NCBI GenBank assembly: GCA_016288155.1
Contig: JAEEYP010000058.1
Location: 1,364-65,363 of the forward strand
Length of the DNA: 64,000 nucleotides
Direction of reading: 5' to 3'
From: Clostridiales bacterium
Lineage (GTDB): Bacteria > Bacillota > Clostridia > Oscillospirales > CAG-272
Translations under genes and position numbers: made by a program
The notes under the pieces: generated by a model
What the model saw: the letters and a program-made list of their open reading frames with translations, nothing else
Databases searched by the model: none
What the model was told of the DNA's origin: nothing
Part shown: positions 5,944 through 29,186 of the stretch, piece by piece
How the letters are laid out: the number at the start of each line of letters is the position of its first letter
Numbering within the stretch: the first letter of the stretch is position 1

Positions 5944-6020
5944 GGAGGCGTAGCTCAGCTGGTCAGAGCGCACGGTTCACATCCGTGAGGTCATGGGTTC
6001 GAGCCCCCTCGTCTCCACCA
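5944..6020 (+). tRNA. tRNA-Val(CAC)
   Basis: Cloverleaf: acceptor GGAGGCG/CGTCTCC, anticodon arm CACGG-TTCACAT-CCGTG, TTCGA loop, encoded CCA; one T-stem mismatch. Confidence 0.96.
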
Positions 6021-6022
6021 AA
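6013..6022 (+). other. Left att junction core CTCCACCAAA
   Basis: Identical to 58057-58066; the joined phage arms form an imperfect inverted repeat GGGTTCG..GTGC / GCAC..CGAACTC. Confidence 0.8.
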
Positions 6023-6072
6023 GCGCGCACATACGAACTCATCATCTATGAGAACGTGATGGCGCTCATAGC

Positions 6073-6109
6073 AAAAATACCGCAGAGGTGATCCCTCTGC
6101 GGTATTTTT
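6073..6109. terminator. Bidirectional intrinsic terminator
   Basis: AAAAATACCGCAGAGG...CCTCTGCGGTATTTTT. Confidence 0.85.
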
Positions 6110-6141
6110 CGACCAACTATCAACCAACTATCGACCAACTG

Positions 6142-9100: not shown

Positions 9101-10342
9101 CATCTGTCGCATCTTCTGATCGTCATTGTTCGCTCTCCTTTTCGTCCATCTTCGCGCCGCAGTTCGGGCAATACCGGTACGCGTTACCGAAGATTGTCTC
9201 GCACTCGGAACAGCTGTAAATCGAAGTCGATATCTGTTCCCACCGTCCGTGCTTCACTTCTGCCGGCGCATCACAGATCGTATAAAACGGAGACTGGATC
9301 ATGTCTTTGGCGGCCCTTTCGATGATCGAACGGTTGCCGCAACAGATCGCCTTGCCTTGGATGTATGCCTGCGCCGCGTGTAGCCGGTGCACCGCTTCGG
9401 CGCAGCTCTTACATAGATCGGCAGCCATACAATCCGGACTTCTGTCCGGATCCAAAGATATCTGGAGCATCATCCTTTGAAAACCGCCGGATTCATCTTC
9501 ATCAAATCGTTTGCGGCAAAGATCACATATGACGTATCTCATTTCTGGCTCACCTCTCCTGTCGGAATACTTCTGAGTTATCGACGCTTTTCGGTAGGTT
9601 GTTCTCGGGAGGTCCGGCGAGCACGTCCGTGGCTTTCCCGTCGGTGACAAAGGTCGATTCGGCATGGATGATGGCACTACCGATGACTTGATCAGACACC
9701 TTCCGCATCGGAGTGACGCACAAAACGCGGTAACCACACTCCCTGCAGCGATCGCCAAATCTGTCGGCGCACTCTTTTTTCCACGACATCATGAAATCCC
9801 ATGCGTTCACTTTTCTGGATCCTCCTTTTTACTTTTTCGGCGGAAAATGTTCACGGCCTTCCGAAGATTCGCCGTGATGGCGTTCTCCCGAGTCTTCTCG
9901 TCAGCCTGCAGCGCGTCGGAATCAAAAGGACGCGCCGGGTGGTACAAACTCTCCTTGCAGGCCGATTGGCATAGGAGCGATTGCATACTCTGTATTTGCG
10001 CTGCATATTGCAGACGATCAATCTCCCTCTGCAGGTCGGCCAGCGCCATTGTCGGATTGACGCCGCCGAGAAGCAGGTCCAGCGCCTCTACCTGCGCGTC
10101 CGTCAGGCAGTCGATTTTGGCCTGCAATGATTCCCTACTCATGCGTTCGCCCCCTCGACCCATTTACGGAGCTTCCGTAGACACTCTGGACAAAGATCAA
10201 TTTTTATTTTGCCATAGTCGCCGACCGTTTCCCGCGTGATCTTATACACACCGCCGTTTTGCGCCAGCTCGTCGATCATGGCGTTCACTATCGTCGGGTA
10301 GGAGAAATTCTCACCACACCTGTCACAAGTTATGGACTGCAT
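6142..10342 (-). other. Run of about 14 small, overlapping phage accessory CDSs, many with CxxC zinc-ribbon motifs
   Basis: Coupled ORFs 6142-6402, 6402-6599, 6599-7045, 7042-7278, 7275-7583, 7567-7806, 7926-8201, 8191-8463, 8453-8935, 8932-9126, 9123-9542, 9550-9810, 9807-10142, 10139-10342, mostly with GGAG-type RBS. Confidence 0.8.
8453..8935 (-). CDS. Pentapeptide repeat protein
   Basis: ADLRC-TDLSD-ADFSG...ADLRY-ADLRN-ADLFG-ADLRN. Confidence 0.9.
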   Translation of the reverse strand: MTQKELDVILEKHKKWLTHEEGGERADLRCTDLSDADFSGVNLHDASFKGAWLTNANLIGADLRYADLRNADLFGADLRNADLDFSCLPLWCGSLHAHFDDRQLKQIAYHLVKAGLYSRNASEETKRELAKLIDFANGFHRAEECGILKNPFEEEKQHGN

Positions 10343-10356
10343 TACTGCGCCTCCTT

Positions 10357-12093
10357 TCACGCGCCTGCTGTCAGCGCCGGCAGGCTCCGGGCCGGATCGC
10401 TGAGATAGAAGCCGGCGTCCTTCAGGACGGTCGCGTACTGCTTCTCGCCGGATCTGGCCGTTCCGTCGCCGTGGAGACCGTCCACAACGGCCTTCTCAGT
10501 TGCGCTCATTCGATCATATGCGGCCTTGCCGTAGTTCGGAGGGAGCCAGCCGCGGCCGCGGGCGGCATAGATGTTCAGGCGTTCCACCAGCGGCATGGCC
10601 GACGGCAGGAACTTTATGTGTGTCGTTCCTTTTTTGAACAGGTCGATCTTGAAATACTTGCACTCGATGTTCCGCGTCTGACCGGCAGCAGCCGCGGCGT
10701 GTAGCCGCTCCCTGAGGTCGACGTCTTCGGTCCGACCGCCGTCCAGATAATTGAACGCCTTTTCGATATCAGAAACGACATGGAACGCCGTGGAGACGTC
10801 GAACGCCTCCTTTTTCCAGCTGTACGACGAGAAAATACCTGATGTGGGGATGATGCACTTCGCGCCGATCTTGTGCGCCTTATTCGACGCCCAGCCGTTG
10901 TAGTAGTGACGGTTCGAGGAGCATTCCGGATACCATGCGTGTTCGAACGTCAGCTTGTCGAATAGGCCGTTGATGGCCTTCTCGACGCCCTCCATGATGG
11001 AGGCGTTCATCTCGGCGGCGATTTGTTTAATGTTGAATGCGGAGAATTCGTAATCGGCCATGCGCTCGATTCGCTCGCCGTACTTCTTCTGCATCTCGGA
11101 CGTCAGCCGGCCGGTGAATGCCGGATTCTCGAAGAGGGCCTGCCAGTATTTCAGCCGGACCGCTCTCATGTATTTCCGGTAGTCGAAACCTTTGAGGTAG
11201 TTGTCATCCGTGACGGTCAGCGTCAATATCGGCGAAGCGTCGAAACTGTCCTTCGCGTTCAGCCGGCGGCCGATGAACGGCTTCAGCGCGCGGTACTCCC
11301 GGACAAACGCCATCGTCGCGGCGCACTCGGTGCGGTACAGCGCGATCGCCTGCTCGATATAGTCGCCCGGGACAAGGGCGCGGAGCTCGACGTCAGGCTC
11401 GTCCATGTCCTCCTCCACGGCCTTCCGCATCCGATCCCAGATGGCACTGTTCTCCTTCACCTGCTCGAAATGGATCTTGACAATGGCCACGTCAACGCCG
11501 GCCGGACGCTCCGCATTGGCAAATGCGTTTCCGATGATCTCGGCATCCGCGTGATACTTTTCGAGCTGTCTGGACAGCAGCTTCCGTTCCATCGTGCACG
11601 GGTTCCGCAACGTCTCGGCGTTCAGCAGACAGACGATGGAGCCGCCGTCCTTCTGCATCTCGATCGCCCGGAGCAGGTGCTTGGCGCCCGCCGCGAACGG
11701 CGGATTCATCAGAATGAGGTCGTAATGCTTGTAGGTACGATACATCAGAAAATCGTCATGCACGACGTGGACGTCGACCCTCTCAAGCGCACTGGCGTCC
11801 GGATCGAACCGTCCGTCCGACCGCATCAGCTGCTTGCGGTGCTCGTCGGAAAACTGGTACTTCAGGATCTGCCGGAGTTGCGGGTCGATCTCGCAGCAGT
11901 CCACGTCCATTGTGTAAGCGTGCTGCGGGACACTGCGGGCGAGTTCCATGACAAGGTCACCTTTGCCCGCGGAGGGCTCGAGGACGGTCCGCACCATCCG
12001 AAAATCGACTCCCTCCAGCATCTTGCGCGCCACATCCGGCGGCGTGGGGTAGAACTGACCGTCCTGCGTGCTCGTAAGCTCTCTCGCTCTCAT
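10357..12093 (-). CDS. SAM-dependent DNA methyltransferase-like protein with DUF4942-type C-terminus
   Basis: QFYPTP, VLEPSAGKG, MNPPF; C-terminal YFKIDLFKKGTTHIKF. Confidence 0.85.
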   Translation of the reverse strand: MRARELTSTQDGQFYPTPPDVARKMLEGVDFRMVRTVLEPSAGKGDLVMELARSVPQHAYTMDVDCCEIDPQLRQILKYQFSDEHRKQLMRSDGRFDPDASALERVDVHVVHDDFLMYRTYKHYDLILMNPPFAAGAKHLLRAIEMQKDGGSIVCLLNAETLRNPCTMERKLLSRQLEKYHADAEIIGNAFANAERPAGVDVAIVKIHFEQVKENSAIWDRMRKAVEEDMDEPDVELRALVPGDYIEQAIALYRTECAATMAFVREYRALKPFIGRRLNAKDSFDASPILTLTVTDDNYLKGFDYRKYMRAVRLKYWQALFENPAFTGRLTSEMQKKYGERIERMADYEFSAFNIKQIAAEMNASIMEGVEKAINGLFDKLTFEHAWYPECSSNRHYYNGWASNKAHKIGAKCIIPTSGIFSSYSWKKEAFDVSTAFHVVSDIEKAFNYLDGGRTEDVDLRERLHAAAAAGQTRNIECKYFKIDLFKKGTTHIKFLPSAMPLVERLNIYAARGRGWLPPNYGKAAYDRMSATEKAVVDGLHGDGTARSGEKQYATVLKDAGFYLSDPARSLPALTAGA

Positions 12094-12446
12094 GCCTGCT
12101 CCTCCGTTTCTTTGTGCACGCGATCCCGCGTCTTGCTGGAGTCAAACGTGATCCTTTTGAATCCGATGCTGTCGCAGTAGTAGAACCCCGGCACAATTTC
12201 ATCCGCCGTAATGATCTCCACGACGTCCGACACAGAGAGGGAATGCCCCGTGAATCCCGCCGGGCGGGAATTGAACAGCGCATACACGTCTTCCAAATCG
12301 TGGAGATCGGCGATACCGTCGTAAATGCAGTCATAGATCCCGCTGTCGACGCCGGAATCGTGGCACGACAGCACCGTCTCAAGATCCACGAATGCCATAT
12401 GACGCGCGTCGCGCGACAAATCGATCTGATAGATCCTGAACCTCAT
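12090..12446 (-). CDS. YodL-domain protein
   Basis: IYQI...LEDVYALFN..PAGFTGHSLSVSDVV...YYCDSIGF. Confidence 0.85.
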   Translation of the reverse strand: MRFRIYQIDLSRDARHMAFVDLETVLSCHDSGVDSGIYDCIYDGIADLHDLEDVYALFNSRPAGFTGHSLSVSDVVEIITADEIVPGFYYCDSIGFKRITFDSSKTRDRVHKETEEQA

Positions 12447-12649
12447 GCCTGCTCCTCCTCTCCCGTCATGGCTGCGAGGAACGCCCTGTGAAGGATCCTC
12501 CGGTCCACAGCACGCAGATACCGAAACGACGCATCGTACGCCGTCATGAAGCGCTGCAAGTCCTTCGCGGCGATCGCCTGTTCCATCTCGAAGATCAGCT
12601 CCGTCGCCCGGCGGGCACAGCGTGCCTTCTCTTTTTCCCAGCTACTCAT
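12443..12649 (-). CDS. Hypothetical phage protein
   Basis: ORF with RBS downstream of promoter 12702-12730. Confidence 0.65.
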   Translation of the reverse strand: MSSWEKEKARCARRATELIFEMEQAIAAKDLQRFMTAYDASFRYLRAVDRRILHRAFLAAMTGEEEQA

Positions 12650-12701
12650 TGTTTGCCTCCGTCAATAATAATGTACAAGTCAAAGATTTTTGACTAACCA
12701 T

Positions 12702-12730
12702 ATTATACCGCGACGGAGGCTGTCTGTCAA
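12702..12730 (-). promoter_or_regulatory. SigA promoter for the YodL/MTase cluster
   Basis: TTGACA-N17-TATAAT with AT-rich upstream element. Confidence 0.8.
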
Positions 12731-12782
12731 GAACATTTTGCTAAAAATATCAAAAATATTTGATTCGCCAAAAAGACAAAGA

Positions 12783-12813
12783 AAAAGCCCGACCGGAAAT
12801 CCGGTCGGGCTTT
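12783..12813 (-). terminator. Intrinsic terminator
   Basis: AAAAAGCCCGACCGGA-AA-TCCGGTCGGGCTTT. Confidence 0.8.
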
Positions 12814-12820
12814 GCGTCTA

Positions 12821-13240
12821 TTACAGTCTGTCGATCAGCATTCGCAGGACGTCGCTGACAGTCCTGCGGCAGGATCGCGCGTACGTCTTGAGCTTGTCCA
12901 GCTCCTCTGGCGAGACGATCACGGACAGGCGGATCGGCTGCTCGCTCTCCGGGGCGCTGAACTCGTATGCGCAGATCTCCTCACCCATATAGGTGACGAT
13001 CCACGTGCGTGCCTCGTCATCTGTGAGAGGGATAAGCCGCTCCCCGGGCTCATATCGTCCGTGAGCCGTCCGACGGGCGTACCGGCTTTCTGGACCTCCC
13101 ACAGCGTGCAGGAAAAACTCCCCTGTACGCTTTCTTAGCAGAGTCTCCGTCTCATGCGCCTGACCAACACCGCGGGACGTTGTACCCACCTCTCGGGCGC
13201 TTTCGGTGTTGTACCGTTTGCCTTTGATGATCTGATTCAT
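12821..13240 (-). CDS. Phage protein with C-terminal ribbon-helix-helix-like domain, candidate repressor
   Basis: C-terminus IRLSVIVSPEELDKLKTYARSCRRTVSDVLRMLI; own promoter at 13265-13293. Confidence 0.65.
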   Translation of the reverse strand: MNQIIKGKRYNTESAREVGTTSRGVGQAHETETLLRKRTGEFFLHAVGGPESRYARRTAHGRYEPGERLIPLTDDEARTWIVTYMGEEICAYEFSAPESEQPIRLSVIVSPEELDKLKTYARSCRRTVSDVLRMLIDRL

Positions 13241-13289
13241 GCTCGTGCCTCCTTTTTTTTATTCATGATACCATGACTTTTGCAAAATG

Positions 13290-13645
13290 TCAATGCTTTT
13301 GGCATACGATGACGCGGGAATCTTCTTTGTATCGCTTTTCGGCCTCCGCCTTCGTGTAGCCGTAATATTGCCGCACGCCGTCCTCACCGTAAACCACCCA
13401 CGCGCCGTGTATGTTCCGCTCGGAGAAAAAGATCTTCATGCTGTTCACCTGTGCATTTCGCCGTTGATGAAGGTACAGTAGATGTACCACCCTTCGAGGA
13501 TACGTTCCCGGCACACCCAAAGGACTGAGTGCACCACAGCGTGCTTGCCCTTCTTATCCATGACGAAGTACCGCACGTCCGGGTACTCTAAGCTGCTCTG
13601 CCGGGCTCTTTCCATTGCCTCCCTGAGACTTTTCTTTTCGTTCAT
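13290..13645 (-). CDS. Two small hypothetical phage proteins
   Basis: MNEKKSLREA... and MKIFFSERNIHGAW... ORFs. Confidence 0.55.
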
Positions 13646-13697
13646 TCCACTCCTCCTGCCCGCGTACGACGCCCACGGGCGGGCGATTGTTATCGAA

Positions 13698-14871
13698 TCA
13701 GGCCGAGAGCTTGCAGCGCGTGAGGACCGTCTGAGCGACGCCGTCACGCTCGTCGTGCTTCTTCACGGTGCCGGTGATCTTCGTCGCGCCAGTAACTTCA
13801 CAGGGCGACGACGCGAACCACACCAGCGTGGCGCCGTCGGCGGCCATGAACCGGTACAGGTACGTCGTGCCATAATTGGTGTCCCACGACGTCACCAGAG
13901 CCGCTGAGCGAATCGGAACGGTGATGCGCTCCCCAACGGTGCCGATATGATGCGATCCCGCCTTAGCGGCCTCCTGCGCGGCCTGACGCTGCCGCTCGCG
14001 CTCCCGGTGCTCGCACCACTTCTCGTAGTCGCGCGGCAGATAGGCGATGCGTCCGACGTGTGACAGCTTGCACCACCCCTGCTCGATCAGCGGCCGGAGA
14101 TCGTAGGCGACGAGGACTTCCGCCGGCTGGAGATCCGGGGACAGCGCCCACTTCATGATCTCATCCGCCCGGGTGTACGCTGCTGCGTCCGGCGTGTAGC
14201 CGTCGCGCAGCTCGTCGCGGATCCGGACGGCGGTTGCTCCGGGAGCGTCAGACCGGACGAATCCGTGCTTGGCGATGGCCGCGACCGCCAGCGCGGTTGC
14301 CGTCCGAACTGGGAACAGATTGCCATGCCGTTCAACATCGTACTGGTCGCCGGTCGCCTCCGCGCTCTGAAGGAACGTGACGACCTCGGCGAACGCGATG
14401 ACCGACGCCGGGTTGATCCCGGTATAGTCCCGCAGACAGCTGCTGCCGACCTGATGCGTGACACCGTCATCCGATCGGACCATGAACGTGACGTTGCGGT
14501 CACGGTTTCGACGGCAGTGTTCGCACATCGGTGCGCAGGTACGCCACGCTTCCGGGAACGGCTGTCCGATCGGATACGTTGTGATCAGGTTACCGTTGTC
14601 CATGTGCTCCACCTTGGCCGTCAGTGTCCAACCGGGCGCCCTGACCGAGTCCGCGTCAACCTCCACGTCACAGGCGCTGACGGTGTACCTCGCGGCGACA
14701 TACGTCTCGTGGGTCGCCGGATCAAGCCCCTTGACCTCGATCTTCTGCGGGTGCTCCGGACCGATGGTAAACCGGATCGGCGTCCCGGAGAGCCGAACCG
14801 ACTTCCGGGACAGGGCCGTGAGCTTCTTCTCGACCGCATCGCGGTCGGCTGCAAAAAACGGTGATCGTCAT
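13698..14871 (-). pseudogene. Phage protein with C-terminal OB-fold-like domain, frameshifted near its start
   Basis: RBS and ATG at 14871 join the 322-aa ORF if one base of the A6 run at 14853-14858 is removed (MTITVFAADRDAVEKKL...). Confidence 0.7.
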
Positions 14872-14895
14872 GGTGTTCTCCTCACTTATGCGGTG

Positions 14896-14975
14896 CTGAT
14901 TTGGCGGGCTTGTGACCGCTCTGAGCCGCATTCCCGGCGGGGCTCTCCGGCCCCGCCGCCACTCTGCGTAGTCAG
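14896..14975 (-). ncRNA. Twister ribozyme (P5-type permutation), copy 2
   Basis: GCAGAGUGG-[9-bp P1]-G-GAAUGC-G-GC...GCGG-UCAC-AAGC-CCGC; both pseudoknots can form. Confidence 0.8.
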
Positions 14976-15787
14976 ACCTTATTGATCAGGGTCCTGAAGT
15001 GGAAGCATTGGACATTCCATCCGCCGGCACCTATGGTCTGGACCTTGGCCGTCCCGGCGTCGCCCTTGATGAACCCGTTCAGGTCGCCTTTATCACCGAC
15101 CGTAAGGCCCGCCGCGTCTGTGATCGTCCCCACAACGGTGTTCGTGCGCTCGATGATGAAATCGTACTTCCGGTCAGCCTCGTCGTTCAGATCCTTCGCC
15201 AGCTTCGCCATCGCCTCGTCCAGCGTACGCTCGCTCGTGTACGACCTCAGGTGCTCATACTCGCCGTCACGGACCTTCGTCTTGCCCTTGTACTTGTACT
15301 TGCGCCCGAAGCGCTCGTACTCGTACTCCTCATAGTAACCGTGGACCTTGCAGTAGAACGCATCCTGCGCCGCCTCGTAGGCTGCCCTCTTGGCCTTGTA
15401 CGCGTCGCTGCCGTAGAACTCCTCGCCGTAGGCTCTGTAGAGCTGGTAGACCGCTTCCTTCTCGTCGAAGAAGGCTTTCAGGCCTGTGCCGTAGAACAGC
15501 GTGCAGCGTTCCTTCCATTGCTTCAGGAACTCCAGAATCGCAGGGACGTTCCGGCTGCCGGCCTTCTGCTCGGCGACCGTCAGATCCGCACGGTAGTCCT
15601 CCAAAGCCTTCCGGGCGGCGTCCAGATCCCGGACGGTCCAGCGCAGGTCGCTCTCGCTGTAGTAGTAAGGGTTTTTCGTCCAGCCGGTAGCCTCGGCCTC
15701 GTGGATGCGCGCCAGCTTCTTCTCGAGCTTTTCGATCTCCTTCTCTTTGCCGGCGACTCTCTTCTGCAGAAATTCGATGGTAGCCAT
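14972..15787 (-). CDS. Hypothetical phage protein
   Basis: 271 aa, strong RBS and promoter; C-terminal GDLNG...TIGAGGWNVQCFHFR. Confidence 0.85.
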   Translation of the reverse strand: MATIEFLQKRVAGKEKEIEKLEKKLARIHEAEATGWTKNPYYYSESDLRWTVRDLDAARKALEDYRADLTVAEQKAGSRNVPAILEFLKQWKERCTLFYGTGLKAFFDEKEAVYQLYRAYGEEFYGSDAYKAKRAAYEAAQDAFYCKVHGYYEEYEYERFGRKYKYKGKTKVRDGEYEHLRSYTSERTLDEAMAKLAKDLNDEADRKYDFIIERTNTVVGTITDAAGLTVGDKGDLNGFIKGDAGTAKVQTIGAGGWNVQCFHFRTLINKV

Positions 15788-15843
15788 AACGGTTCTCCTT
15801 TTAGTCGTTAAATTTGACGAGTCAATCGTCCTTGACTGGCATC

Positions 15844-15872
15844 ATTATAACACTACTTTGGCATATTGTCAA
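15844..15872 (-). promoter_or_regulatory. Consensus SigA promoter with shared operator
   Basis: TTGACA-atatgccaaagtagtgt-TATAAT. Confidence 0.85.
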
Positions 15873-15956
15873 TACTATATTCAAAAATATTTGAAATATT
15901 TTTTGCCGGTCAAAAAAGGAGAGCCACCGCAGCTCTCCTTTCTGTGATCTCACCGT

Positions 15957-16193
15957 TTATTTGAAGCACTTGAAGCCTATCGCCGCTGCATGTGCGCAAA
16001 ACGCTTCTACCGTTTCCTTTGGTACGAATGAAGTAGTATGAATCGTTTTCCACTCACCGTAAGCGCCTTCGGGCGATTCAGGATCTTCTTCCCACTTCTG
16101 GTAGTATTCGCGGTACAGGTTGCTGTCGACTCTCTCAAAAACAATCTGTTCCTCGCCGTTCCTTATCAGCGTGATATACCGTTTCTTTCTCAT
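15957..16193 (-). CDS. Hypothetical phage protein
   Basis: MRKKRYITLIRNG..., GGAGG RBS. Confidence 0.65.
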   Translation of the reverse strand: MRKKRYITLIRNGEEQIVFERVDSNLYREYYQKWEEDPESPEGAYGEWKTIHTTSFVPKETVEAFCAHAAAIGFKCFK

Positions 16194-16226
16194 GCTCTCG
16201 CCTCCGCGTATGGCCGCCGCCCTTCT

Positions 16227-16290
16227 GCGCGCCCGGGGTTGTGACCGGGTCTCCCGCATTACCGGAGCTTTCGCTCCGTCACTCTGCGCG
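16227..16290 (-). ncRNA. Twister ribozyme (P5-type permutation), copy 1
   Basis: GCAGAGUGA-CGGAGC-GAAA-GCUCCG-G-UAAUGC-G-GG-AGAC-CCGG-UCAC-AA-CC-CCGG. Confidence 0.85.
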
Positions 16291-16440
16291 TTCAAGGGCC
16301 TTGAGGGCATCCTTGATCAGGATCATTACGATGTCGTGCTGTTCTTCCGGCGTCTTGGCGTCCCAGTTGACGCGCCCCATGACGACAATATAGGATTCGA
16401 CGACCATGTCGACGATCTTGTCAGCGGTGGTTTTTGTCAT
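16279..16440 (-). CDS. 53-aa hypothetical protein (not in the ORF track)
   Basis: MTKTTADKIVDMVVESYIVVMGRVNWDAKTPEEQHDIVMILIKDALKALERAE. Confidence 0.65.
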   Translation of the reverse strand: MTKTTADKIVDMVVESYIVVMGRVNWDAKTPEEQHDIVMILIKDALKALERAE

Positions 16441-16488
16441 TGTAGTTGCCTCTCTGCGTTTTAAGGCCGCCGCCCTTTTGATGATACT

Positions 16489-16517
16489 ATTATATCACTA
16501 CTTTTGCATATTGTCAA
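16489..16517 (-). promoter_or_regulatory. Consensus SigA promoter with shared operator
   Basis: TTGACA-atatgcaaaagtagtga-TATAAT. Confidence 0.85.
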
Positions 16518-16664
16518 TACCTTTTACAAAAATATTTGAAAAAATTTTGCTGGCCGAGTTTTACGGACTGGAGCCCGCCGGGACACCATTCGGGTGCCGC
16601 CATGCACAGCTGGGCTACACCCGAAAAGGCCCTCATCCTTCGACATCCCGCGGATCTCAGCCGA

Positions 16665-16925
16665 AATGTTACACGCACGCGCGTATATGAGCACGAATAC
16701 GTGCATTAGGCGGACGCACCGGGCGGTTTTACTGTCTATACGCCTATTTTGGGGTCTATTATATAAAAAATGTAACATTGTAACGGTAAGCTGAAAAGCC
16801 TTGTGGCATAAGGGTTTTTCCCGGTTACATTTTCGGTTACATAAACGTAACACTGTAACCGCAGAGCGTTACAATGTTACATTTCAAGAGGGAATTGTAA
16901 CACGATTGTAACGCAAAATGTAACA
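16665..16925. repeat. GTAAC/GTTAC iteron-like array, copy A
   Basis: 12 motifs in the same order and orientation as 43234-43503. Confidence 0.85.
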
Positions 16926-17017
16926 GTTCTTTTTGAGCCCTCCGGAGAACGAAAAAAAAAAGGCCGTGCACAGCCGGTTTTACCCGACTGCACACGGCCT
17001 TTTTGGCTCTGTTGCTC

Positions 17018-17233
17018 TTATTCGTCTTTGTCCTTGTTTGCCGCTCCGGCGGCGTCAATGGCCGCCTCGCCGACGATATACGCGACGACGGAGATTGCCG
17101 ACGTGACGACCCCCGCGAGTTGCGTATACTCCGACGCGTCGACGCCGAAGGCAGACGCGATCCCGATGATCACACCGATGATCGCCACCCAGAGCTTCCG
17201 GGACTTGAGCTTATCGAGGATTGTCCTTTTCAT
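17018..17233 (-). CDS. Holin
   Basis: KLKSRKLW plus two TM helices, YIVGEAAID. Confidence 0.8.
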   Translation of the reverse strand: MKRTILDKLKSRKLWVAIIGVIIGIASAFGVDASEYTQLAGVVTSAISVVAYIVGEAAIDAAGAANKDKDE

Positions 17234-17249
17234 GTTTTCCTTCCTTTCA

Positions 17250-18041
17250 TCACTGGATCGCCAGCTTGGCGAGGTTTTTCACGTGCACCGCCGCCGTCAC
17301 GACGGAACCGATGCCGATCACGACGCGGTCCCCGTTGACGGCGATCACGTCGTATGAGCTGTAGTACACGGCGAAGCGCCGGATACTGTGATAGACGTAC
17401 GGCGAGACGACTCGGACCTTGTCTCCGACGCGGATCGTGCTGTCCGCGGCAAAATACCCGTAGTCGATGTCCACGTCACCCCTCACTCCGTCTACAGGCG
17501 CCTTGGAGGGCTGCCATATCGTCGGACTGTACGCCAGCGCTTTGTCGGCCGTCACCCCCCAGTACGCAAGCCAGAGCGGGAGATCGGAGACGTCTCCGAG
17601 CCTGTACGTCAGATATCCCGGATTCGAGTACAGCATCGGTCTGTATCCGGCCCGGACGAGGATATCCGCGAATAGGTGGATCATCTGCGTGAGGGCGCCC
17701 TTCTCCGTCGGGAGGTTTGCATCGTCCTCCGCGTCGATCGCCGCCCACAGCGTCACCTTGTCCTTGACCGGCGCGACCGTCTTGATGAAGAAGGCAGCTT
17801 CCTTCTCCGTCTCGGCGATATTCCGCGCCGAGAGGTAGTGGTACACCCCGACCGGGATTCCGGCGCGGACCGCGCCTTTGAGGTGATTCATGAACATCGA
17901 ATCGGCGAACGGTCCGACGTTCGGGTTGGATGTCAGCTTCCCCTGCGACGCCTTCACCATCGCAAAGCTGACCCCGTCCGCCTTTGCCCGCTGCCAGTCG
18001 ATGACGGATTGCCAATTCGATACGTCGATTCCTTTGACCAT
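17250..18041 (-). CDS. Endolysin, GH25 muramidase
   Basis: GIDVSNWQ, VKASQG, GVYHY, IDAE, LWLAYW, VDID. Confidence 0.92.
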   Translation of the reverse strand: MVKGIDVSNWQSVIDWQRAKADGVSFAMVKASQGKLTSNPNVGPFADSMFMNHLKGAVRAGIPVGVYHYLSARNIAETEKEAAFFIKTVAPVKDKVTLWAAIDAEDDANLPTEKGALTQMIHLFADILVRAGYRPMLYSNPGYLTYRLGDVSDLPLWLAYWGVTADKALAYSPTIWQPSKAPVDGVRGDVDIDYGYFAADSTIRVGDKVRVVSPYVYHSIRRFAVYYSSYDVIAVNGDRVVIGIGSVVTAAVHVKNLAKLAIQ

Positions 18042-18051
18042 GAGCTTTCCC

Positions 18052-18372
18052 TCACTTTCCGACTGTGTCAGACGCGCTCTCCGGGAGGGCGATCACGTCC
18101 TCATACAGCTTTGTCGCCACGTCGTTACCTCCGAGGTCGTGATACGCTTGGTACGAGCGTTTCAAACTATCTTTTGCGTAAATAGGGCAGTAGCCCTTCA
18201 GGATGTACTCCTTGTGCTCCCGGATAATTTCGGCTCTGAGAAGACATTGCACTCCGTTTTCGAGCGCGTCGTTACGTTTGCGCAAATTCCGGACCGCGCC
18301 TGCGAGCCATGCGATCACCGCGCCGCACACAAAGGGTACGGCCCATTTCAGAACCAAATTTATGATCTCCAT
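18052..18372 (-). CDS. Holin-like membrane protein
   Basis: N-terminal TM; GVQCLLR...YHDLGGN. Confidence 0.7.
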   Translation of the reverse strand: MEIINLVLKWAVPFVCGAVIAWLAGAVRNLRKRNDALENGVQCLLRAEIIREHKEYILKGYCPIYAKDSLKRSYQAYHDLGGNDVATKLYEDVIALPESASDTVGK

Positions 18373-18528
18373 TTTTCATCTCCGATGTTTGTCAAGTTGA
18401 GGAGGGAGGGATTACCCGCACCAATTATAGCCGCCCGTCTCCCGCGTCGCTTTGACGCGCATAACGCGGCAAACCTCCCGGTGGGCATTTTACTGAGCCG
18501 CGTGGATATAGCACTGAGGCATGAAATG

Positions 18529-18765
18529 TTATTCGTTCACTTCGTTATCATCACTATCTTCGATCACGGGATGAAAATAGCACTGATACATCAGTTCGAA
18601 ACCCTCTTCGGTGATGATTGCCGCCGCGTGTTTCTCGACGGAAGAGATAGCTGCCGCCGCAAGGATCGTGTGGTACTTGCTCTCCGCCGCTTCACGTGTA
18701 GCGTGAGAGGTCACGAGGTGTGCGGTCTGCCCGCCAGTCGTTTGCAGTTCAATGACAAAATACAT
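18529..18765 (-). CDS. Hypothetical phage protein
   Basis: MYFVIELQT...AESKYHTILAAAAIS. Confidence 0.7.
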   Translation of the reverse strand: MYFVIELQTTGGQTAHLVTSHATREAAESKYHTILAAAAISSVEKHAAAIITEEGFELMYQCYFHPVIEDSDDNEVNE

Positions 18766-18811
18766 TTTGTTTTTTCTCCTTTTTATATTATTGAAATTTA
18801 GGGATACAAAA

Positions 18812-20698
18812 TCATGCGATTCGGAAACAAATCGGAATGCCTGCATTAAAAGGAGTGTCGCTTGCGTAGAACGCGGCACCACTTGTGACATAAGACCATT
18901 TCGCCGAGTCTCCTGAATTGGCTGAAAGAACCCACCAGTCCGATCTCGCTCCATTGACCGTCTTGATACGGTTCTCCATGCTTTGGAAAACAGGGTATTG
19001 AACGCAAGTGCCGCGCACAGAATTATTCCTTGTCCCGAATACGACACCGCCTGCTACTTCCCACTCCGACGGAAGCCACAATTTGCCGATGTTCGTCCAT
19101 CCCGCATCGACATCATCGGTGATTAGTTTAGCGGCATTGTACCTCTTCGGTAAGTTCACAGTTTTTTCGATGATCACCGCCTTGAGCGCGGAGGGGAGGT
19201 AGTAGTACACGCCGCCCTGCGTGTAATCCACGTGCTTCACAGCAGGGTTGAAACTTGCGCTATCCGGTACCTGACCTGCGAGGCTGTTCAGATAATGGTA
19301 CAGTTCAGATGCAATCCACGGGTGCGGTGTTCCAGTTCCAGTTACCGTGATTGATCCTGCGGCGGGTGCCTCCTCAAACGTCAGCGTATATGTTGACGGA
19401 TCATATGTCCACCCGGTCAGAGAAGTGCTTCCCACCTTGACAGAATCAACATCGTTCATCTGTTTTGTGAGAACAAACGCTGTTGTCTCTCCGTCACCGG
19501 TGATAGTCTCAACGGGGATCAAACCGTTGTTGTAGTTTTTTGAATTGATCTTATATTTGTTCGACCATGCTTCACGGCATATAAAATCTATGTGGTTAGG
19601 GATATTGTAATACCCCTTATAGGTATTAATCCCCGCAACACACGCATTGAATGCTTTGTTGTTCGTCGTTGTAAACGGGATATAGTCGTTTGCGTGAATA
19701 CCCGAAAAGTTCCCCGCGGTGATTCTTGCTTTAATCCAAGCCCACGGATCACCGCCATACGATGTTATTTCGTCTGCGAATTTCGTTGCGAGGTTTGTTC
19801 CCGTGTACCATGGCTCGACAGATGTCAGCGCACTTTCATCCACACCTCCGCCGCTCCCGGCCGCAAGTTCAGACGCGACATTTGTTTCCTCCGTGTTAGA
19901 GGACGAGATCGTCTCGCCAGTTGCAATCGCCGCTGTCGCTTTTAACAGAGCGCCGCCGACGACGACGAGGTCGCCGATTGAGTAGTTCCGCGTCGCTGTG
20001 GAGGATGCTTCTCTCGGCGCGATCATCTCCTGCGTATCGTGAATCGCGTCGCCAGTCGCTTTCGCGTCTGCCGCCGATCCGGGAACGGAGAGTGTCGGAT
20101 CGGTTGCCCACCAGTAGACGATATTCACACCATCAGACGCGGAAACGGTGCTGTCGTCGGATTTTGCCGCCACGATGCGGATAGAATCAGCACCGCTCGT
20201 CTCATATAGGTGGACGGGAGATGTATGCCAGTTTGGCGACTTTTCAAATTGCGTCCCTGTCCATGTTCCGACAAACGTATTGCCACTCCATCCGTAAACG
20301 ACAAATCTGTATCCCGTATTGCAAGATACGGTTTTTATCGCCCTGCTGATGAAATCTGTGCGGATGCGCGTTGTGGAAGATACTTCCGCCCCGGTGGTAG
20401 TGTTGATTACTCCGTTTACCCACTCGTCTGCGGATGTTGCGATCTTTCGAATGATTGCGTCGCGGAATACGCCGACAGCCTTCGCGTCAGCCGCACGCCC
20501 AGAGACAGAGAGTGTATCATCGACCACTAAAGTGGTTGCGGACTGGGCTGCCGCTGCGGCAGAGTCCGATGCCGCAGCGGCAGACTGCCCGGCTGCGTTT
20601 GCCGCTTCAGACGCCGTTTGCGCCGCAGCCTGCGCCGTCGCCGCGGCAGGCGCAGCCCGGTTTGCCATAATCAGCGCATACGTAAGCTCTTTGCCCAT
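18812..20698 (-). CDS. Tail fibre / receptor-binding-like protein
   Basis: Ala-rich N-terminus, two DxTLSVxGxAADAKA motifs, C-terminal LWLPSEWEV...WWVLS...PICF (DUF6273-like). Confidence 0.7.
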   Translation of the reverse strand: MGKELTYALIMANRAAPAAATAQAAAQTASEAANAAGQSAAAASDSAAAAAQSATTLVVDDTLSVSGRAADAKAVGVFRDAIIRKIATSADEWVNGVINTTTGAEVSSTTRIRTDFISRAIKTVSCNTGYRFVVYGWSGNTFVGTWTGTQFEKSPNWHTSPVHLYETSGADSIRIVAAKSDDSTVSASDGVNIVYWWATDPTLSVPGSAADAKATGDAIHDTQEMIAPREASSTATRNYSIGDLVVVGGALLKATAAIATGETISSSNTEETNVASELAAGSGGGVDESALTSVEPWYTGTNLATKFADEITSYGGDPWAWIKARITAGNFSGIHANDYIPFTTTNNKAFNACVAGINTYKGYYNIPNHIDFICREAWSNKYKINSKNYNNGLIPVETITGDGETTAFVLTKQMNDVDSVKVGSTSLTGWTYDPSTYTLTFEEAPAAGSITVTGTGTPHPWIASELYHYLNSLAGQVPDSASFNPAVKHVDYTQGGVYYYLPSALKAVIIEKTVNLPKRYNAAKLITDDVDAGWTNIGKLWLPSEWEVAGGVVFGTRNNSVRGTCVQYPVFQSMENRIKTVNGARSDWWVLSANSGDSAKWSYVTSGAAFYASDTPFNAGIPICFRIA

Positions 20699-20721
20699 TA
20701 TTCACTCACCTCCTCCCCCAC

Positions 20722-20952
20722 TTATTGCGCAACAAATTCGCCCGATTCATTGGCGAGATATATCTGATGCGCGGCCTCCGTGGAGACGACGTACAGCACC
20801 GAAAACGGTGCAAACACTTCGTCCGCGCTCATTCCCGTCACATTCTCCCCGGACGTCGGCAGCGGATCCGGCGTGTCGTCAGCGACGATGATTACGTTCA
20901 TCATTTGTTTGTCACCACGGCGGCCGAACGGTTCTTTTGATACGCATATCAT
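20722..20952 (-). CDS. Small phage protein
   Basis: ORF between the ferritin-like gene and the fibre gene. Confidence 0.65.
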   Translation of the reverse strand: MICVSKEPFGRRGDKQMMNVIIVADDTPDPLPTSGENVTGMSADEVFAPFSVLYVVSTEAAHQIYLANESGEFVAQ

Positions 20953-20954
20953 GG

Positions 20955-21266
20955 TTATACCCCCTTAAACAGGACCTGATAGTTCTTGGCTTCCTGTGCT
21001 TTTTCGATGCTCTTCTTGTGTAGGTAGTCATACACGGCCAGCATGTTGGCCGGCGGTTCACCCTTGCTCCGACGGTACTCGTCAATCAGCTTCGTGACCT
21101 CGGCGTGCAGCATGGCCATATGCTTCATCTCCTCGAGAGACAGAGTATAAAACACCTCCGCCAGCCCCGGATAAAGCGCCTTGTTTTCGAGCGCGAGCTT
21201 TGCATACTCCGCGGAATCGTGGATCTCATCGTCGATTTTTTCGGATAAAATCTGAATGATTTTCAT
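20955..21266 (-). CDS. Ferritin-like helical protein
   Basis: DEIHDSAEY...EEMKH (ExxH). Confidence 0.65.
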   Translation of the reverse strand: MKIIQILSEKIDDEIHDSAEYAKLALENKALYPGLAEVFYTLSLEEMKHMAMLHAEVTKLIDEYRRSKGEPPANMLAVYDYLHKKSIEKAQEAKNYQVLFKGV

Positions 21267-21331
21267 GTCTTATCCTTTCCGCCCCGGAAGACCGAGAGGG
21301 CCGAAGCCCTCCCGGTCCGGTGCTGTTAAAA

Positions 21332-21856
21332 TCAGGCAGAAGCGGCCGCCGGGTTGGCGACCCACTTACCCATGACACTGAGGAGATACTGAGACTGTGC
21401 GGCGTTCGACGCGTCATTCTGGACGGTACGATATTTCTCCGCGAGCTCGTCGTACTTGTCCTGAAGCATCTGCGTTTTGATCGAACAACAGCACGATTCC
21501 ATCTGGAATCCGAGCTGTGCGATCTGCTGACGCAGTTCCGCAAACTGGTTGGCGTTCTGGAGGTTGACCTGATTGAATCCCTGAATGGCATTGATCAGGT
21601 TCGTGTTTTGCTGCTGCATCATATTCATGGACTGCTGATTGATCTGCTGCAGCGTTTCGTAGTTGTTGTTCGCGCTGGAGAGGAGGATGTCACGCTGACC
21701 GTTCTGGAGGCTCTGGTTGTTGACCGCGGCGTTGATGGCCGCTTCCGTCGCACCGTTGCCGCTGCCGAACAGGCCGCCGTTGCCGCCGAGACCGAAGATC
21801 AGGGCAATGATCAGAAATGCCCAAATCCAGCCGCCGCCGATAGTGTTGTCACCCAT
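21332..21856 (-). CDS. Membrane-anchored N/Q-rich coiled-coil protein with CCC motif
   Basis: GGGWIWAFLIIALIFG TM, Gly linker, QMESCCC. Confidence 0.8.
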   Translation of the reverse strand: MGDNTIGGGWIWAFLIIALIFGLGGNGGLFGSGNGATEAAINAAVNNQSLQNGQRDILLSSANNNYETLQQINQQSMNMMQQQNTNLINAIQGFNQVNLQNANQFAELRQQIAQLGFQMESCCCSIKTQMLQDKYDELAEKYRTVQNDASNAAQSQYLLSVMGKWVANPAAASA

Positions 21857-21912
21857 AGTAGACACTCCTTTGTGGAAAAATATTTTCAAACCCGGCCGGG
21901 ATTTGAATCGGA

Positions 21913-22170
21913 TTACTTCTGCGCCGCCGCCTCCGTTTGGATCTGCTGGATGAGCTGACCTTCGTTGACACCCTTCTTAGCGGACAGCGCGTGCGCAGTC
22001 TGTTCGAGGTTGGCGAGATCCAGTCCCTGCAGCTCCGGTACGCGGTTGGCAAGACCCTGCATAAACGCCTCCGGTGATTCGCCGCGCATCATGGCCGCGA
22101 AGGCCTGCAGCATAAGAGATCTGCCGTTGTTTCCGCCCATGCCGCCGATCATTTGTAAGATAGGATTCAT
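21913..22170 (-). CDS. Small Met/Gln-rich protein
   Basis: MNPILQMIGGMGG... Confidence 0.75.
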   Translation of the reverse strand: MNPILQMIGGMGGNNGRSLMLQAFAAMMRGESPEAFMQGLANRVPELQGLDLANLEQTAHALSAKKGVNEGQLIQQIQTEAAAQK

Positions 22171-22658
22171 TCATCAGCCTCCGTTTCATTATGTGCGGCG
22201 GACGTTTCCGCCTTGCGCCGCTTCGATCCGTTCGCCTCAGGGGTGTAGCCGCCGGTCAGCATCGCCTTGATCTCCGCCTTGAAATCGTCCAGATCCTTCC
22301 GTGTGAGGGTGTTGCTCTCCGGCTCCGGTGCGTCTTTCAGCGTAAAAGGTCCGAGCTTGAGCGGCGCTTCCTTCCCGTTTGCGTCTTTCGACCGGAGATA
22401 GAACACCGATTCGTTTTTGTCAAACACAACGATCGTGGTGTTCGGTCGCATAGGGAGACTTCGCGCACTTTCAATGCCGTCCACGAACAGGACCGGCTGT
22501 GGGATTTCGGACGACGGCACGTCGTGTCCGGTAGCGTTTGCGGCTCCCCCGGCGTTCGGATCCGACGCGATCTGATTTTGCAGAGCAGAGAGCTGCGCGT
22601 ACTGTCGCTGTAGGTCTGCGAGCTGTTGCTGGACGAGCTGTGCGTAATTGGTCGCCAT
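22167..22658 (-). CDS. Gln-rich hypothetical protein
   Basis: VDGIESA...VFYLRSKDANG...LTRKDLDD. Confidence 0.75.
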   Translation of the reverse strand: MATNYAQLVQQQLADLQRQYAQLSALQNQIASDPNAGGAANATGHDVPSSEIPQPVLFVDGIESARSLPMRPNTTIVVFDKNESVFYLRSKDANGKEAPLKLGPFTLKDAPEPESNTLTRKDLDDFKAEIKAMLTGGYTPEANGSKRRKAETSAAHNETEADE

Positions 22659-22669
22659 GATCTGCCTCC

Positions 22670-23038
22670 TTATTCCTCCGCACCTTCGAGTTCGACGAAC
22701 CCTTGAAGCGCGCTGAGGTCATTATAGGAAAGTCGCAGGTTCTCGCAGACAGGAATGCGGACCGGGCTGACGTCATCCACCTCGACGTCCAGCAGCTCCG
22801 CCATACGCGCCTCGTAGGCCGGCAGATTCTCGGACGCGATCAACCATCTGCCCGGCTCGGTCTCGGTCTCCGTGCCGTACTTGGCAAGCGCCGTGTCTCG
22901 CTGCTCATTATAAAAATCGAGCTGTTTTTCGAGACTGTCCATCAGCCGCCCGACGCGGTAGAGCACGCTGAGTGAGAGATCCGTAGACGCCACTTTCTGC
23001 AGCGCCGGAACCGCGTTTACGATCCTACCAAGCTTCAT
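22670..23038 (-). CDS. Hypothetical tail-region protein
   Basis: ORF coupled to the tail gene. Confidence 0.7.
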   Translation of the reverse strand: MKLGRIVNAVPALQKVASTDLSLSVLYRVGRLMDSLEKQLDFYNEQRDTALAKYGTETETEPGRWLIASENLPAYEARMAELLDVEVDDVSPVRIPVCENLRLSYNDLSALQGFVELEGAEE

Positions 23039-23063
23039 TTCTTTGCCTCCTTGTTCCGGTTCG

Positions 23064-24932: not shown

Positions 24933-25330
24933 TACGTCACCGTCGCCTCCTTAACGCTGATCAGCGTGAACGTCACGTTGTCGATCACAATGTCGTCATC
25001 CCGGAACTGCTCCTCGGCCGCGGAGATACTGGTCGAATAGAACAACCGGGAGCACATGCCATCCTTGAGATCCGGGTATTGCACGACCACACCCGCGTCG
25101 TGCCCCTGCAGATCCGTTTCGAGCTGCTGCGCTGCCGAGAACGGCATAGGACCTAACTTTACCGTCAGTTTCCTCTGATGCGATCTTACGTTCGTGTGCA
25201 TGATGTCGGCCTCGTCGCGGCCAGCGTCCGAGTCATTAGTATTCTCGCGTGCCCACGCGAGGCCGGTTTTTTGTTTGACGTATTGGGTATAGTCATGTCC
25301 GTTGATGATAAGAGCCCCTGTAATAGCCAT
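24932..25330 (-). CDS. Distal tail-like protein
   Basis: DSDAGRDE motif; directly after the tape measure gene. Confidence 0.7.
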   Translation of the reverse strand: MAITGALIINGHDYTQYVKQKTGLAWARENTNDSDAGRDEADIMHTNVRSHQRKLTVKLGPMPFSAAQQLETDLQGHDAGVVVQYPDLKDGMCSRLFYSTSISAAEEQFRDDDIVIDNVTFTLISVKEATVT

Positions 25331-25332
25331 CC

Positions 25333-29162: not shown

Positions 29163-29186
29163 CGTACGGCCCCCTTTCTGCGTTTA

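What the first reader, a model, noticed from the sequence alone, without database searches (positions are those of the whole stretch)
14896..16290. Two twister self-cleaving ribozymes overlapping stop codons in the accessory arm
Seen on the minus strand: both elements match the twister core (GCAGAG-T1-P1 hairpin-N^AAUGC-T2-P4). T1 pairs GUGA or GUGG with UCAC. T2 is GG/CC in copy 1 and GC/GC in copy 2, a compensatory change. P1 stems differ completely but pair perfectly. Predicted cleavage is at 16261/16260 (U^A) and 14933/14932 (G^A). Each overlaps the stop codon of the first gene behind a strong promoter. Established: twisters occur in Clostridia, but their biological roles are mostly unknown. 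Inference: they cut polycistronic early mRNA to uncouple the stability or translation of downstream genes.
Basis: partly seen in the sequence, partly recalled or inferred. Interest (0 to 1): 0.75.

Follow-up and report, generated by a model that had tools for sequence, protein, structure and literature searches.

The report
Two twister ribozymes in a prophage
Two genuine copies of the known self-cutting "twister" RNA sit between genes at the accessory end of a prophage in a gut-type Clostridia genome; they are clean new examples of an arrangement already described in phages.

Summary
Both elements are real type-P5 twister ribozymes. Rfam RF02684 scores them 66.0 and 50.7 bits against a gathering score of 37.6.

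They lie on the minus strand of a 52-kb prophage inserted in tRNA-Val. The region follows the lysis genes. Each ribozyme follows the first gene of a short unit driven by a perfect TTGACA-17-TATAAT promoter.

In copy 1 the UGA stop supplies three of the four T1 nucleotides. In copy 2 the stop lies 3 nt before the ribozyme, so "overlap" holds for only one of two.

In my survey of phage twister-P5 sequences the ribozyme usually fills the whole gap between a stop codon and the next ribosome-binding site. The stop lay within -20 to +10 nt in 39 of 48 cases.

The best explanation is constitutive cleavage between cistrons, which gives the two halves separate fates. This is the published but unproven hypothesis (PMC3088659, PMC6765202). 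"Early polycistronic mRNA" is not shown.

The scan has already reported the same layout on other phage DNA. Verdict: new members of a known kind, modest interest.

The parts
16489..16517 (-). Promoter of unit 1: TTGACA-17-TATAAT, 12/12, with TG before the -10. The palindrome TTTCAAATATTTTTGTA lies just upstream at 16541-16525.
16279..16440 (-). Gene A, 53 aa, no family match. Its last codons (..GCA GAG) and its TGA stop are encoded by the 5' strand of the ribozyme (P2 and T1).
16233..16288 (-). Twister-P5 ribozyme copy 1. P2 16288-16285/16258-16255. T1 16282-16279/16244-16241. P1 16278-16273/16268-16263. T2 16254-16253/16238-16237. P4 16248-16245/16236-16233. Predicted cut U16261^A16260.
   Evidence: 66.0 bits; pairings read
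15957..16193 (-). Gene B, 78 aa, no family match. SD GGAGG at 16205-16201. The ATG lies 39 nt after P4.
15912..15941 (-). Terminator-like hairpin of 11 bp followed by a U tract, closing unit 1.
   Evidence: whole 61-nt stretch -23.0 kcal/mol, z -3.4. Not listed by the consensus scan.
15844..15872 (-). Promoter of unit 2: TTGACA-17-TATAAT, 12/12, with TG. A paralogue of the unit 1 promoter module. Palindrome TTTCAAATATTTTTGAA at 15896-15880.
   Evidence: family D2
14972..15787 (-). Gene C, 271 aa, no Pfam family. Stop TGA at 14974-14972, 3 nt before the ribozyme.
14904..14968 (-). Twister-P5 ribozyme copy 2. P2 14968-14965/14930-14927. T1 14962-14959/14915-14912. P1 14958-14950/14943-14935. T2 14926-14925/14909-14908. 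P4 14919-14916/14907-14904. Predicted cut G14933^A14932, with G at -1 where U is usual.
   Evidence: 50.7 bits
13698..14871 (-). Gene D, phrog_2319 family of phage proteins of unknown function. SD GAGGAG at 14883-14878, ATG at 14871. The reading frame is broken in the T6 run 14858-14853. The rest is open in the next frame and matches full-length homologues.
6001..58213 (.). Prophage of about 52.2 kb carrying the above. The 3' end of tRNA-Val is repeated at 6001-6027 and 58187-58213. Serine integrase 56477-58135(+). Lysis genes 17018-18372(-). Terminator 17003-16958(-). The accessory arm runs from 16.9 kb to 6.1 kb.
   Evidence: (D16)

Best explanation
Both elements are functional type-P5 twister self-cleaving ribozymes. 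They are transcribed as part of two short prophage accessory operons, each laid out as promoter, gene 1, ribozyme, gene 2.

Once the 56-65 nt have been made, the RNA most likely cuts itself without a cofactor at N^AAUGC.

The upstream product keeps an intact gene 1 with its stop codon. It ends in the GC-rich P1 hairpin, one or two nucleotides from a 2',3'-cyclic phosphate.

The downstream product starts with a 5'-OH, carries the P4 hairpin (with T2) about 12 nt from its 5' end, and has the Shine-Dalgarno of gene 2 some 20-30 nt after P4.

The two cistrons, made in equal amounts from one strong promoter, therefore become separate molecules with independent decay and translation.

What is shown: family membership, the geometry, and the generality of the stop-ribozyme-SD packing in phages.

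What is inferred: cleavage in vivo, the protective role of P1 and P4, and the direction of the effect on gene 2.
For: - Rfam scores both copies well above the gathering score.
- T1 and T2 pair in both copies although the model ignores them, and the two copies differ by a compensatory change in T2.
- On 42 Rfam-validated sequences (40 from other loci, plus the two copies here), 89.6% of cells pair. Shuffles give 71.3 +/- 1.0 (0 of 500 reach the observed value) and slid controls give at most 42.3%. The covariation score is 0.434 against 0.134.
- Of the 32 of 42 sequences I could parse, the middle T1 pair is complementary in 32, using four pair types.
- Each ribozyme is co-oriented with its flanking genes, downstream of a 12/12 promoter, with an SD and ATG 32-39 nt after P4.
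- The layout is general. Of 50 twister-P5 sequences (48 from viral contigs plus these two), 48 have an upstream ORF of at least 40 codons. In 39 of those 48 the stop lies -20 to +10 nt from GCAGAG. The next RBS-preceded start lies 16-59 nt after P4 in 41 of 47.
- The P1 hairpins are stable: -11.9 and -21.8 kcal/mol.
- P1 is phylogenetically conserved yet dispensable for catalysis (PMC5408937, passages read). That leaves room for a role after cleavage.
- The host encodes RNase J and RNase Y, both above curated cut-offs. It therefore has the end-dependent decay machinery typical of Firmicutes.
- Intercistronic processing is the published hypothesis (PMC3088659 passages; PMC6765202 section 13).
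Against: - No cleavage or expression data exist for this locus.
- Copy 2 has G at -1, where 30 of 32 parsed relatives have U. The review calls this base "nonconserved" and says it makes hardly any contacts (PMC5408937).
- Gene D downstream of copy 2 is frame-broken, so unit 2 may be decaying.
- Homologues of gene C (3 loci) and gene D (2 loci) at 34-44% identity carry no ribozyme at E<=1. The ribozyme is therefore not required for these genes.
- The tight spacing to stop codons is also what simple genome compaction would give.
- Promoter-proximal placement is not general. A promoter-like site lies within 1 kb upstream in 8 of 27 cases, against 7 of 27 on the antisense control.
- A 5'-OH product can be a target of RNase J1 rather than being protected, as I recall for glmS. 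I saw Collins 2007 only as a citation in PMC6765202. The sign of the effect on gene 2 is therefore open.
Confidence: 0.65

Rival explanations
1. Cassette-boundary element. The conserved ribozyme sequence of about 55 nt mainly marks and promotes exchange of gene cassettes between phages, by recombination at a shared intergenic sequence. Any RNA cleavage is secondary.
For: Near-identical ribozyme cores (L014, L114, L107, L044) are flanked by unrelated sequence. Flanking genes are unrelated: 77 of 88 flanking ORF products have no Pfam match and the 11 with a match fall in different families. Gene D follows a twister here but precedes one in L004. Homologues of genes C and D elsewhere lack ribozymes.
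Against: Selection acts on the RNA fold, not on DNA identity. P1 differs completely between copies yet pairs. T1 and T2 covary. A recombination role would not maintain the pseudoknots. The two roles are not exclusive.
Confidence: 0.12
2. Translation-gated cleavage. The stop codon lies in or next to the P2/T1 strand, so a terminating ribosome would unfold the ribozyme. Cleavage would then report whether gene 1 is being translated.
For: In copy 1 the UGA is three of the four T1 nucleotides, and the last codons of gene A are the P2 strand. In the survey the stop abuts, overlaps or lies inside the ribozyme in 26 of 48 cases, and TGA within T1 is the stop in 6 of 48.
Against: In 38 of 48 cases the stop lies before GCAGAG, and in 9 of 48 it lies outside -20 to +10 (5 more than 20 nt upstream, 4 deeper inside the ribozyme). 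TGA at +6 is present in 22 of 50 sequences but is used as the stop in only 6, which is no more than frame chance would give. Twisters are fast, by my recollection, and would probably cut before the first ribosome arrives. Compaction explains the spacing equally well.
Confidence: 0.1
3. Decaying or inactive relics with no present function.
For: G at -1 in copy 2. A frame-broken gene D lies downstream. Twisters are sporadic: 2 of 150 other genomes of the bacterial family and 0 of 2 of the same genus.
Against: All helices and both pseudoknots are intact in both copies, and both score well above the Rfam threshold. The -1 base is reported as non-essential (PMC5408937).
Confidence: 0.07
4. The two cuts release a 1.3-kb RNA (16260 to 14933) that is ligated into a circle or otherwise spliced.
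For: The ends produced (5'-OH and 2',3'-cyclic phosphate) are the substrates of RtcB-type ligases (general knowledge). Perreault et al. considered this possibility for hammerheads (PMC3088659).
Against: A terminator-like hairpin and a new promoter separate the two ribozymes. No RtcB was found in the 95%-complete host genome, and no ligase appeared among the prophage PHROG matches. Perreault et al. report that they could not detect such products (PMC3088659 passage).
Confidence: 0.03

Closest known systems
Type-P5 twister ribozyme (Rfam RF02684; class described by Roth et al. 2014, which I did not read and know only through the reviews PMC5408937 and PMC6765202)
   Same: Same helices P2-P1-P4 in the P5 permutation, the same double pseudoknot T1/T2, the same conserved GCAGAG / AAUGC / GGUCNCAA blocks, and the same cleavage position 5' of the conserved A.
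   Different: Copy 2 has G instead of the usual U at -1. Copy 1 uses the GG/CC form of T2, seen in 8 of 32 parsed relatives, and its T1 strand doubles as a stop codon.
Clustered self-cleaving ribozymes flanking genes in prophages (Perreault et al. 2011, PMC3088659, passages read)
   Same: Ribozymes lie between co-oriented genes of a prophage, the flanking gene identities are not constant, and the proposed role is processing into gene-length mRNAs.
   Different: The ribozymes here are twisters, not hammerheads. There is only one per transcription unit, each unit has its own consensus promoter, and the location is the post-lysis arm next to attL. Viral contigs in my survey carry arrays of up to 7 twisters in 4-5 kb, which this prophage does not.
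glmS ribozyme (reviewed in PMC6765202, section 13)
   Same: Self-cleavage of an mRNA in a Gram-positive host changes its fate through cellular RNases.
   Different: glmS needs GlcN6P and lies in a 5' UTR. Twisters have no known ligand, and these two are intercistronic.
Synthetic ribozyme insulators such as RiboJ (recalled, not retrieved; one search found no paper holding all four search terms)
   Same: A self-cleaving ribozyme placed before an RBS gives the downstream gene a defined 5' leader that does not depend on what lies upstream.
   Different: Those are engineered hammerhead-derived parts. These are natural twisters, and their effect has not been measured.

Membership tests
Twister ribozyme, type P5 (RF02684) | Covariance-model score at or above the curated gathering score, with a full-length match | tested here: met
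   66.0 and 50.7 bits against 37.6, model positions 1-58 of 58 for both. The same two hits appear in the whole-genome search.
Twister ribozyme, type P5 (RF02684) | Helices P1, P2 and P4 in the P5-permuted order | tested here: met
   P2 is 4 bp. P1 is 6 bp in copy 1 and 9 bp in copy 2. P4 is 4 bp in both (5 bp in copy 1 if extended). Read. MFE folds recover P1 and P4 in both copies and P2 in copy 2.
Twister ribozyme, type P5 (RF02684) | Double pseudoknot T1 and T2 between the internal loop or linker and the P4 loop | tested here: met
   T1 is GUGA/UCAC in copy 1 and GUGG/UCAC in copy 2. T2 is GG/CC in copy 1 and GC/GC in copy 2. These pairs are not part of the Rfam model. Family-wide, T1 is paired in 94.6% of cells and T2 in 64.6% in this register.
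Twister ribozyme, type P5 (RF02684) | Conserved core nucleotides, including the adenine 3' of the scissile phosphate | tested here: met
   GCAGAG, AAUGC and GGUCACAA are present in both copies. The -1 base is U in copy 1 and G in copy 2. It is U in 30 of 32 parsed relatives, and the review describes it as less conserved (PMC5408937).
Twister ribozyme, type P5 (RF02684) | Site-specific self-cleavage giving 2',3'-cyclic phosphate and 5'-OH ends | not testable with these tools
   No RNA sequencing run was listed for this stretch. An in vitro or in vivo assay is needed.
Ribozyme-punctuated phage operons (Perreault 2011) | Ribozyme in the gap between co-oriented genes of a phage or prophage | tested here: met
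   Prophage anatomy. Stop-ribozyme-SD geometry.
Ribozyme-punctuated phage operons (Perreault 2011) | Several ribozymes within one long transcript, flanking single genes | tested here: not met
   A terminator-like hairpin and a second 12/12 promoter lie between the two copies. The later gene junctions of unit 2 have no Rfam match at E<=1.

The most novel reading that the evidence does not exclude
The type-P5 permutation may be favoured in phages because it makes an mRNA end on both sides of the cut.

Cleavage leaves the catalytically dispensable P1 hairpin plus a cyclic phosphate as a terminator-like 3' cap on the upstream message. It leaves a 5'-OH plus the P4/T2 knot as a 5' cap just ahead of the next Shine-Dalgarno. 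One 55-nt element would then stand in for a terminator, a promoter and a leader between genes.

Where the stop codon lies inside T1, as in copy 1, terminating ribosomes would also gate the cut.
Probability: 0.2. Interest if true: 0.55.

Novelty: new member of a known kind. Interest (0 to 1): 0.25.

Why it matters
The biological role of bacterial and phage twister ribozymes is still described as elusive (PMC6765202).

This locus is a simple natural test bed. Each of two units consists of one strong promoter, gene 1, one ribozyme and gene 2, inside a prophage. A dead-ribozyme mutant could show directly what cleavage does to the two cistrons.

The survey made here gives concrete features to test:
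- The ribozyme fills the gap between stop codon and SD.
- P1 ends up at the new 3' end.
- P4 ends up near the new 5' end.

The finding does not change what is known about the class.

Tried and rejected
- RNA evidence: no RNA holder was listed for 14700-16600.
- Close relatives of the locus: blastn of 12000-17000 against phage records found no match.
- Gene C had no relative in viral contigs or genome contigs, and three relatives at 39-44% identity in metagenome contigs.
- Gene D had two relatives in viral contigs.
- None of these five loci has any ribozyme at E<=1, so an orthologous-site comparison was not possible.
- tblastn of genes A, B and C against all fetched loci gave nothing at E<=1e-3.
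- A P5-like helix between the flanks, which could have brought copy 2's stop codon into the structure, was rejected. The longest flank pairing averaged 3.6 bp in both real and mismatched flank pairs.
- Promoter-proximal placement as a general rule was rejected: 8 of 27 upstream, 4 of 27 downstream and 7 of 27 antisense. Four viral loci (L009, L014, L017, L048) do show 11-12/12 promoters 240-362 nt upstream.
- Function of genes A-D: no Pfam match. PHROGs gave only unknown-function families for genes C (one weak match) and D, and nothing for A and B. The Atlas gave no usable hit for gene C and only viral hypothetical clusters for a gene D homologue.
- Papers not held: PMC5785228 (Felletti 2017), PMC3867598 (Roth 2014) and PMC4509812 (Weinberg 2015). 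What they say about gene context and stop-codon spacing could bear on novelty.
- Literature searches found no paper on stop-codon overlap of twisters.

Full report
**Observation**

On the minus strand, Rfam's covariance model for type-P5 twister ribozymes (RF02684, gathering score 37.6 bits) matches 16288-16233 with 66.0 bits (E 1.7e-11). It matches 14968-14904 with 50.7 bits (E 1.4e-7). Both matches are full length. A permissive scan of the whole window at E<=1 adds no other ribozyme. The two are the only hits in the 2.84-Mb, 95%-complete genome, and the model hits 0 of 14 control genomes.

The pseudoknots are not part of the model, so I read them from the sequence.
- Copy 1: T1 is GUGA/UCAC and T2 is GG/CC.
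- Copy 2: T1 is GUGG/UCAC and T2 is GC/GC.

P1 is 6 bp with a GAAA loop in copy 1 and 9 bp with a 6-nt loop in copy 2. The two stems are unrelated in sequence and both pair perfectly, at -11.9 and -21.8 kcal/mol.

One detail fails. The TGA of the 53-aa gene A (16281-16279) does lie inside copy 1, where it forms three of the four T1 nucleotides. The TGA of the 271-aa gene C (14974-14972) lies 3 nt before copy 2 starts.

**Family-wide check**

I aligned the two copies with 40 Rfam-validated twister-P5 sequences from other loci. I then counted pairs for P2, the outer part of P1, P4, T1 and T2.
- 89.6% of cells pair, against 71.3 +/- 1.0 in shuffles (0 of 500 reach the observed value) and at most 42.3% when partners are slid.
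- The covariation score is 0.434 against 0.134.
- T1 is paired in 94.6% of cells.
- T2 is paired in 64.6% in this register. The remainder appear to use another register.

Of the 42 sequences, I could parse 32 with simple anchors. In those:
- The middle T1 pair is complementary in 32 of 32, with four pair types.
- T2 is GC/GC in 11 and GG/CC in 8.
- The base before the cut is U in 30, A in one (a parsing artefact) and G only in copy 2 of this window.

A review of the class calls this base less conserved and says it makes hardly any contacts. [quoted passage not shown]

**Surroundings**

The window holds a prophage of about 52.2 kb.
- The 3' end of tRNA-Val (5944-6020) is repeated at 6001-6027 and 58187-58213.
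- A serine integrase and a repressor-like gene lie at the right end on the plus strand.
- On the minus strand come replication genes, terminase, portal, capsid, tape measure, tail fibre, an endolysin and holin-like genes.
- A strong terminator follows at 17003-16958.
- The remaining 11 kb, down to attL, is an accessory arm.

The accessory arm contains:
- Three perfect TTGACA-17-TATAAT promoters (16517-16489, 15872-15844, 12730-12702) and one 11/12 promoter.
- Small genes of unknown function.
- A YodL-like gene and a DUF4942 DNA methyltransferase.

Unit 1 is promoter, gene A, twister 1, gene B (78 aa, SD GGAGG), then an 11-bp hairpin with a U tract. Unit 2 is promoter, gene C, twister 2, gene D and further small genes.

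The two promoters belong to one repeated module of about 60 nt. It includes the palindrome TTCAAATATTTTTGAA just upstream of the -35 hexamer.

Gene D belongs to phrog_2319, with a full-length match. Its ATG at 14871 and first six codons match the start of its closest full-length homologue (54% identity). The frame then breaks in a run of six T (14858-14853) and continues open in the next frame.

**Comparison with other phages**

There were 134 distinct matches, 133 of them in viral loci. Of these, 48 passed a structural filter requiring two T1 pairs, a 3-bp P4 and a P1 of at least 4 bp. Rfam confirmed 40 twister-P5 hits in the 20 loci I submitted. Arrays reached seven copies in 4-5 kb, and two hammerheads were also found.

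For these 48 plus the two copies here, I took the longest same-strand ORF ending between -150 nt and the ribozyme's end. 48 of 50 have an ORF of at least 40 codons. Among those 48:
- The stop lies within -20 to +10 nt of GCAGAG in 39.
- It lies before GCAGAG in 38.
- It abuts, overlaps or lies inside the ribozyme in 26.
- It is the TGA within T1 in 6, including copy 1.

TGA is present at that position in 22 of 50 sequences, so its use as a stop is no more frequent than frame chance. The next RBS-preceded start lies 16-59 nt after P4 in 41 of 47.

The ribozyme therefore typically fills the whole gap between a stop codon and the next Shine-Dalgarno. Genome compaction alone could produce it.

Further checks on context:
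- Flanking genes are heterogeneous. 77 of 88 have no Pfam match and the other 11 fall in different families.
- Near-identical ribozyme cores are flanked by unrelated sequence.
- Homologues of genes C and D elsewhere have no ribozyme.
- A gene D relative in another genome of the same bacterial family is followed, not preceded, by a twister.
- Twisters are sporadic in that family: 2 of 150 other genomes and 0 of 2 of the same genus.
- A promoter within 1 kb upstream is not a general feature: 8 of 27 against 7 of 27 on the antisense control. Four viral loci do repeat the layout of consensus promoter, short ORF, twister and ORF.

**Mechanism**

The best-supported reading is constitutive self-cleavage between the first and second cistron of each unit.

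The geometry is what the sequence shows. The 5' product keeps gene 1 with its stop and ends in the P1 hairpin next to the cut. The 3' product begins with AAUGCGG, carries P4 and T2, and has the SD 20-30 nt beyond P4.

The following is inference:
- P1 may protect the new 3' end. This would explain why it is conserved though not needed for catalysis.
- P4 may shield or expose the 5'-OH end.
- The ratio of the two gene products may be set this way.

The host has RNase J and RNase Y and no detectable RtcB. That fits end-dependent decay and argues against ligation or circularisation.

The idea of intercistronic processing with differential stability or translation is already in print for hammerhead and twister ribozymes, as is their association with phage genes (PMC3088659 passages; PMC6765202 section 13). 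That review also says the purpose remains to be defined.

Whether these units are "early" is open. They sit where temperate phages often carry lysogeny-expressed genes. The shared palindrome upstream of the promoters recurs near the repressor gene, so regulation by a phage factor is possible.

**Verdict**

These are genuine twister ribozymes in a typical phage context. They are new members of a known kind. The scan has reported the same layout several times on other phage DNA. One of those notes states that 44 other phage twisters put the stop before the ribozyme, which agrees with my independent count.

Unusual details are the T1/stop-codon double use in copy 1, G at -1 in copy 2, and the arrangement of one ribozyme per promoter-driven unit in a post-lysis arm.

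I could not read Roth 2014, Weinberg 2015 or Felletti 2017. Their text or supplements may already describe the stop-ribozyme-SD spacing.

Noticed in passing
window 35346-37288 (-): The large terminase gene is split. An N-terminal piece lies at 36968-37288 and a C-terminal piece at 35346-36224. Between them is an HNH endonuclease ORF (36376-36885) inside a sub-threshold group I intron match (36222-37041, 34.1 bits against a gathering score of 50, E 6e-5). This looks like an intron with a homing endonuclease in terL.
   Followed up: partly
window 14853-14858 (-), gene D 13698-14871: The phrog_2319 gene downstream of twister 2 is frame-broken in a run of six T after codon 6. Full-length homologues of 380-435 aa align from the first residues. 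The only protein-database entry at 99% identity is the truncated 322-aa call. It could be a homopolymer assembly error, a pseudogene or slippage.
   Followed up: partly
window 16525-16541, 15880-15896, 12749-12765, 56046-56062: The palindrome TTCAAATATTTTTGAA (core TCAAA-N6-TTTGA) lies directly upstream of the -35 of three accessory-arm promoters and once at the start of the repressor-like gene. There are 6 matches on both strands against 0.06 expected. It could be an operator or an UP element. A fourth, weaker copy of the promoter module lies at 34747-34806.
   Followed up: partly
window 16728-16901 and 43307-43479: An element of about 170 nt, full of GTTACA/TGTAAC repeats, occurs twice at 76-84% identity. 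One copy lies between the lysis terminator and the first accessory promoter. The other lies between the primase-helicase and endonuclease genes. These may be iterons or regulator binding sites.
   Followed up: no
window 6001-6027 and 58187-58213; 58065-58341: The 3' end of tRNA-Val is repeated at both prophage ends (25 of 27 identical), marking attL and attR. At the right end a 136-nt segment is tandemly duplicated at 98% identity, so the tRNA fragment may be present more than once there.
   Followed up: partly
L009 1449-1513(-), L048 1028-1092(-); L050, L063, L064: Viral contigs with twisters like the ones here also carry type II hammerheads 0.5-1 kb downstream. Some carry arrays of 6-7 twister-P5 copies within 4-5 kb, one per gene junction.
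   Followed up: partly
window 50205-50357: An imperfect 12-nt-period tandem repeat (7 overlapping copies of a 39-nt unit at 64-82% identity), lying partly in the gap upstream of the DNA polymerase gene (50509-52536, -).
   Followed up: no
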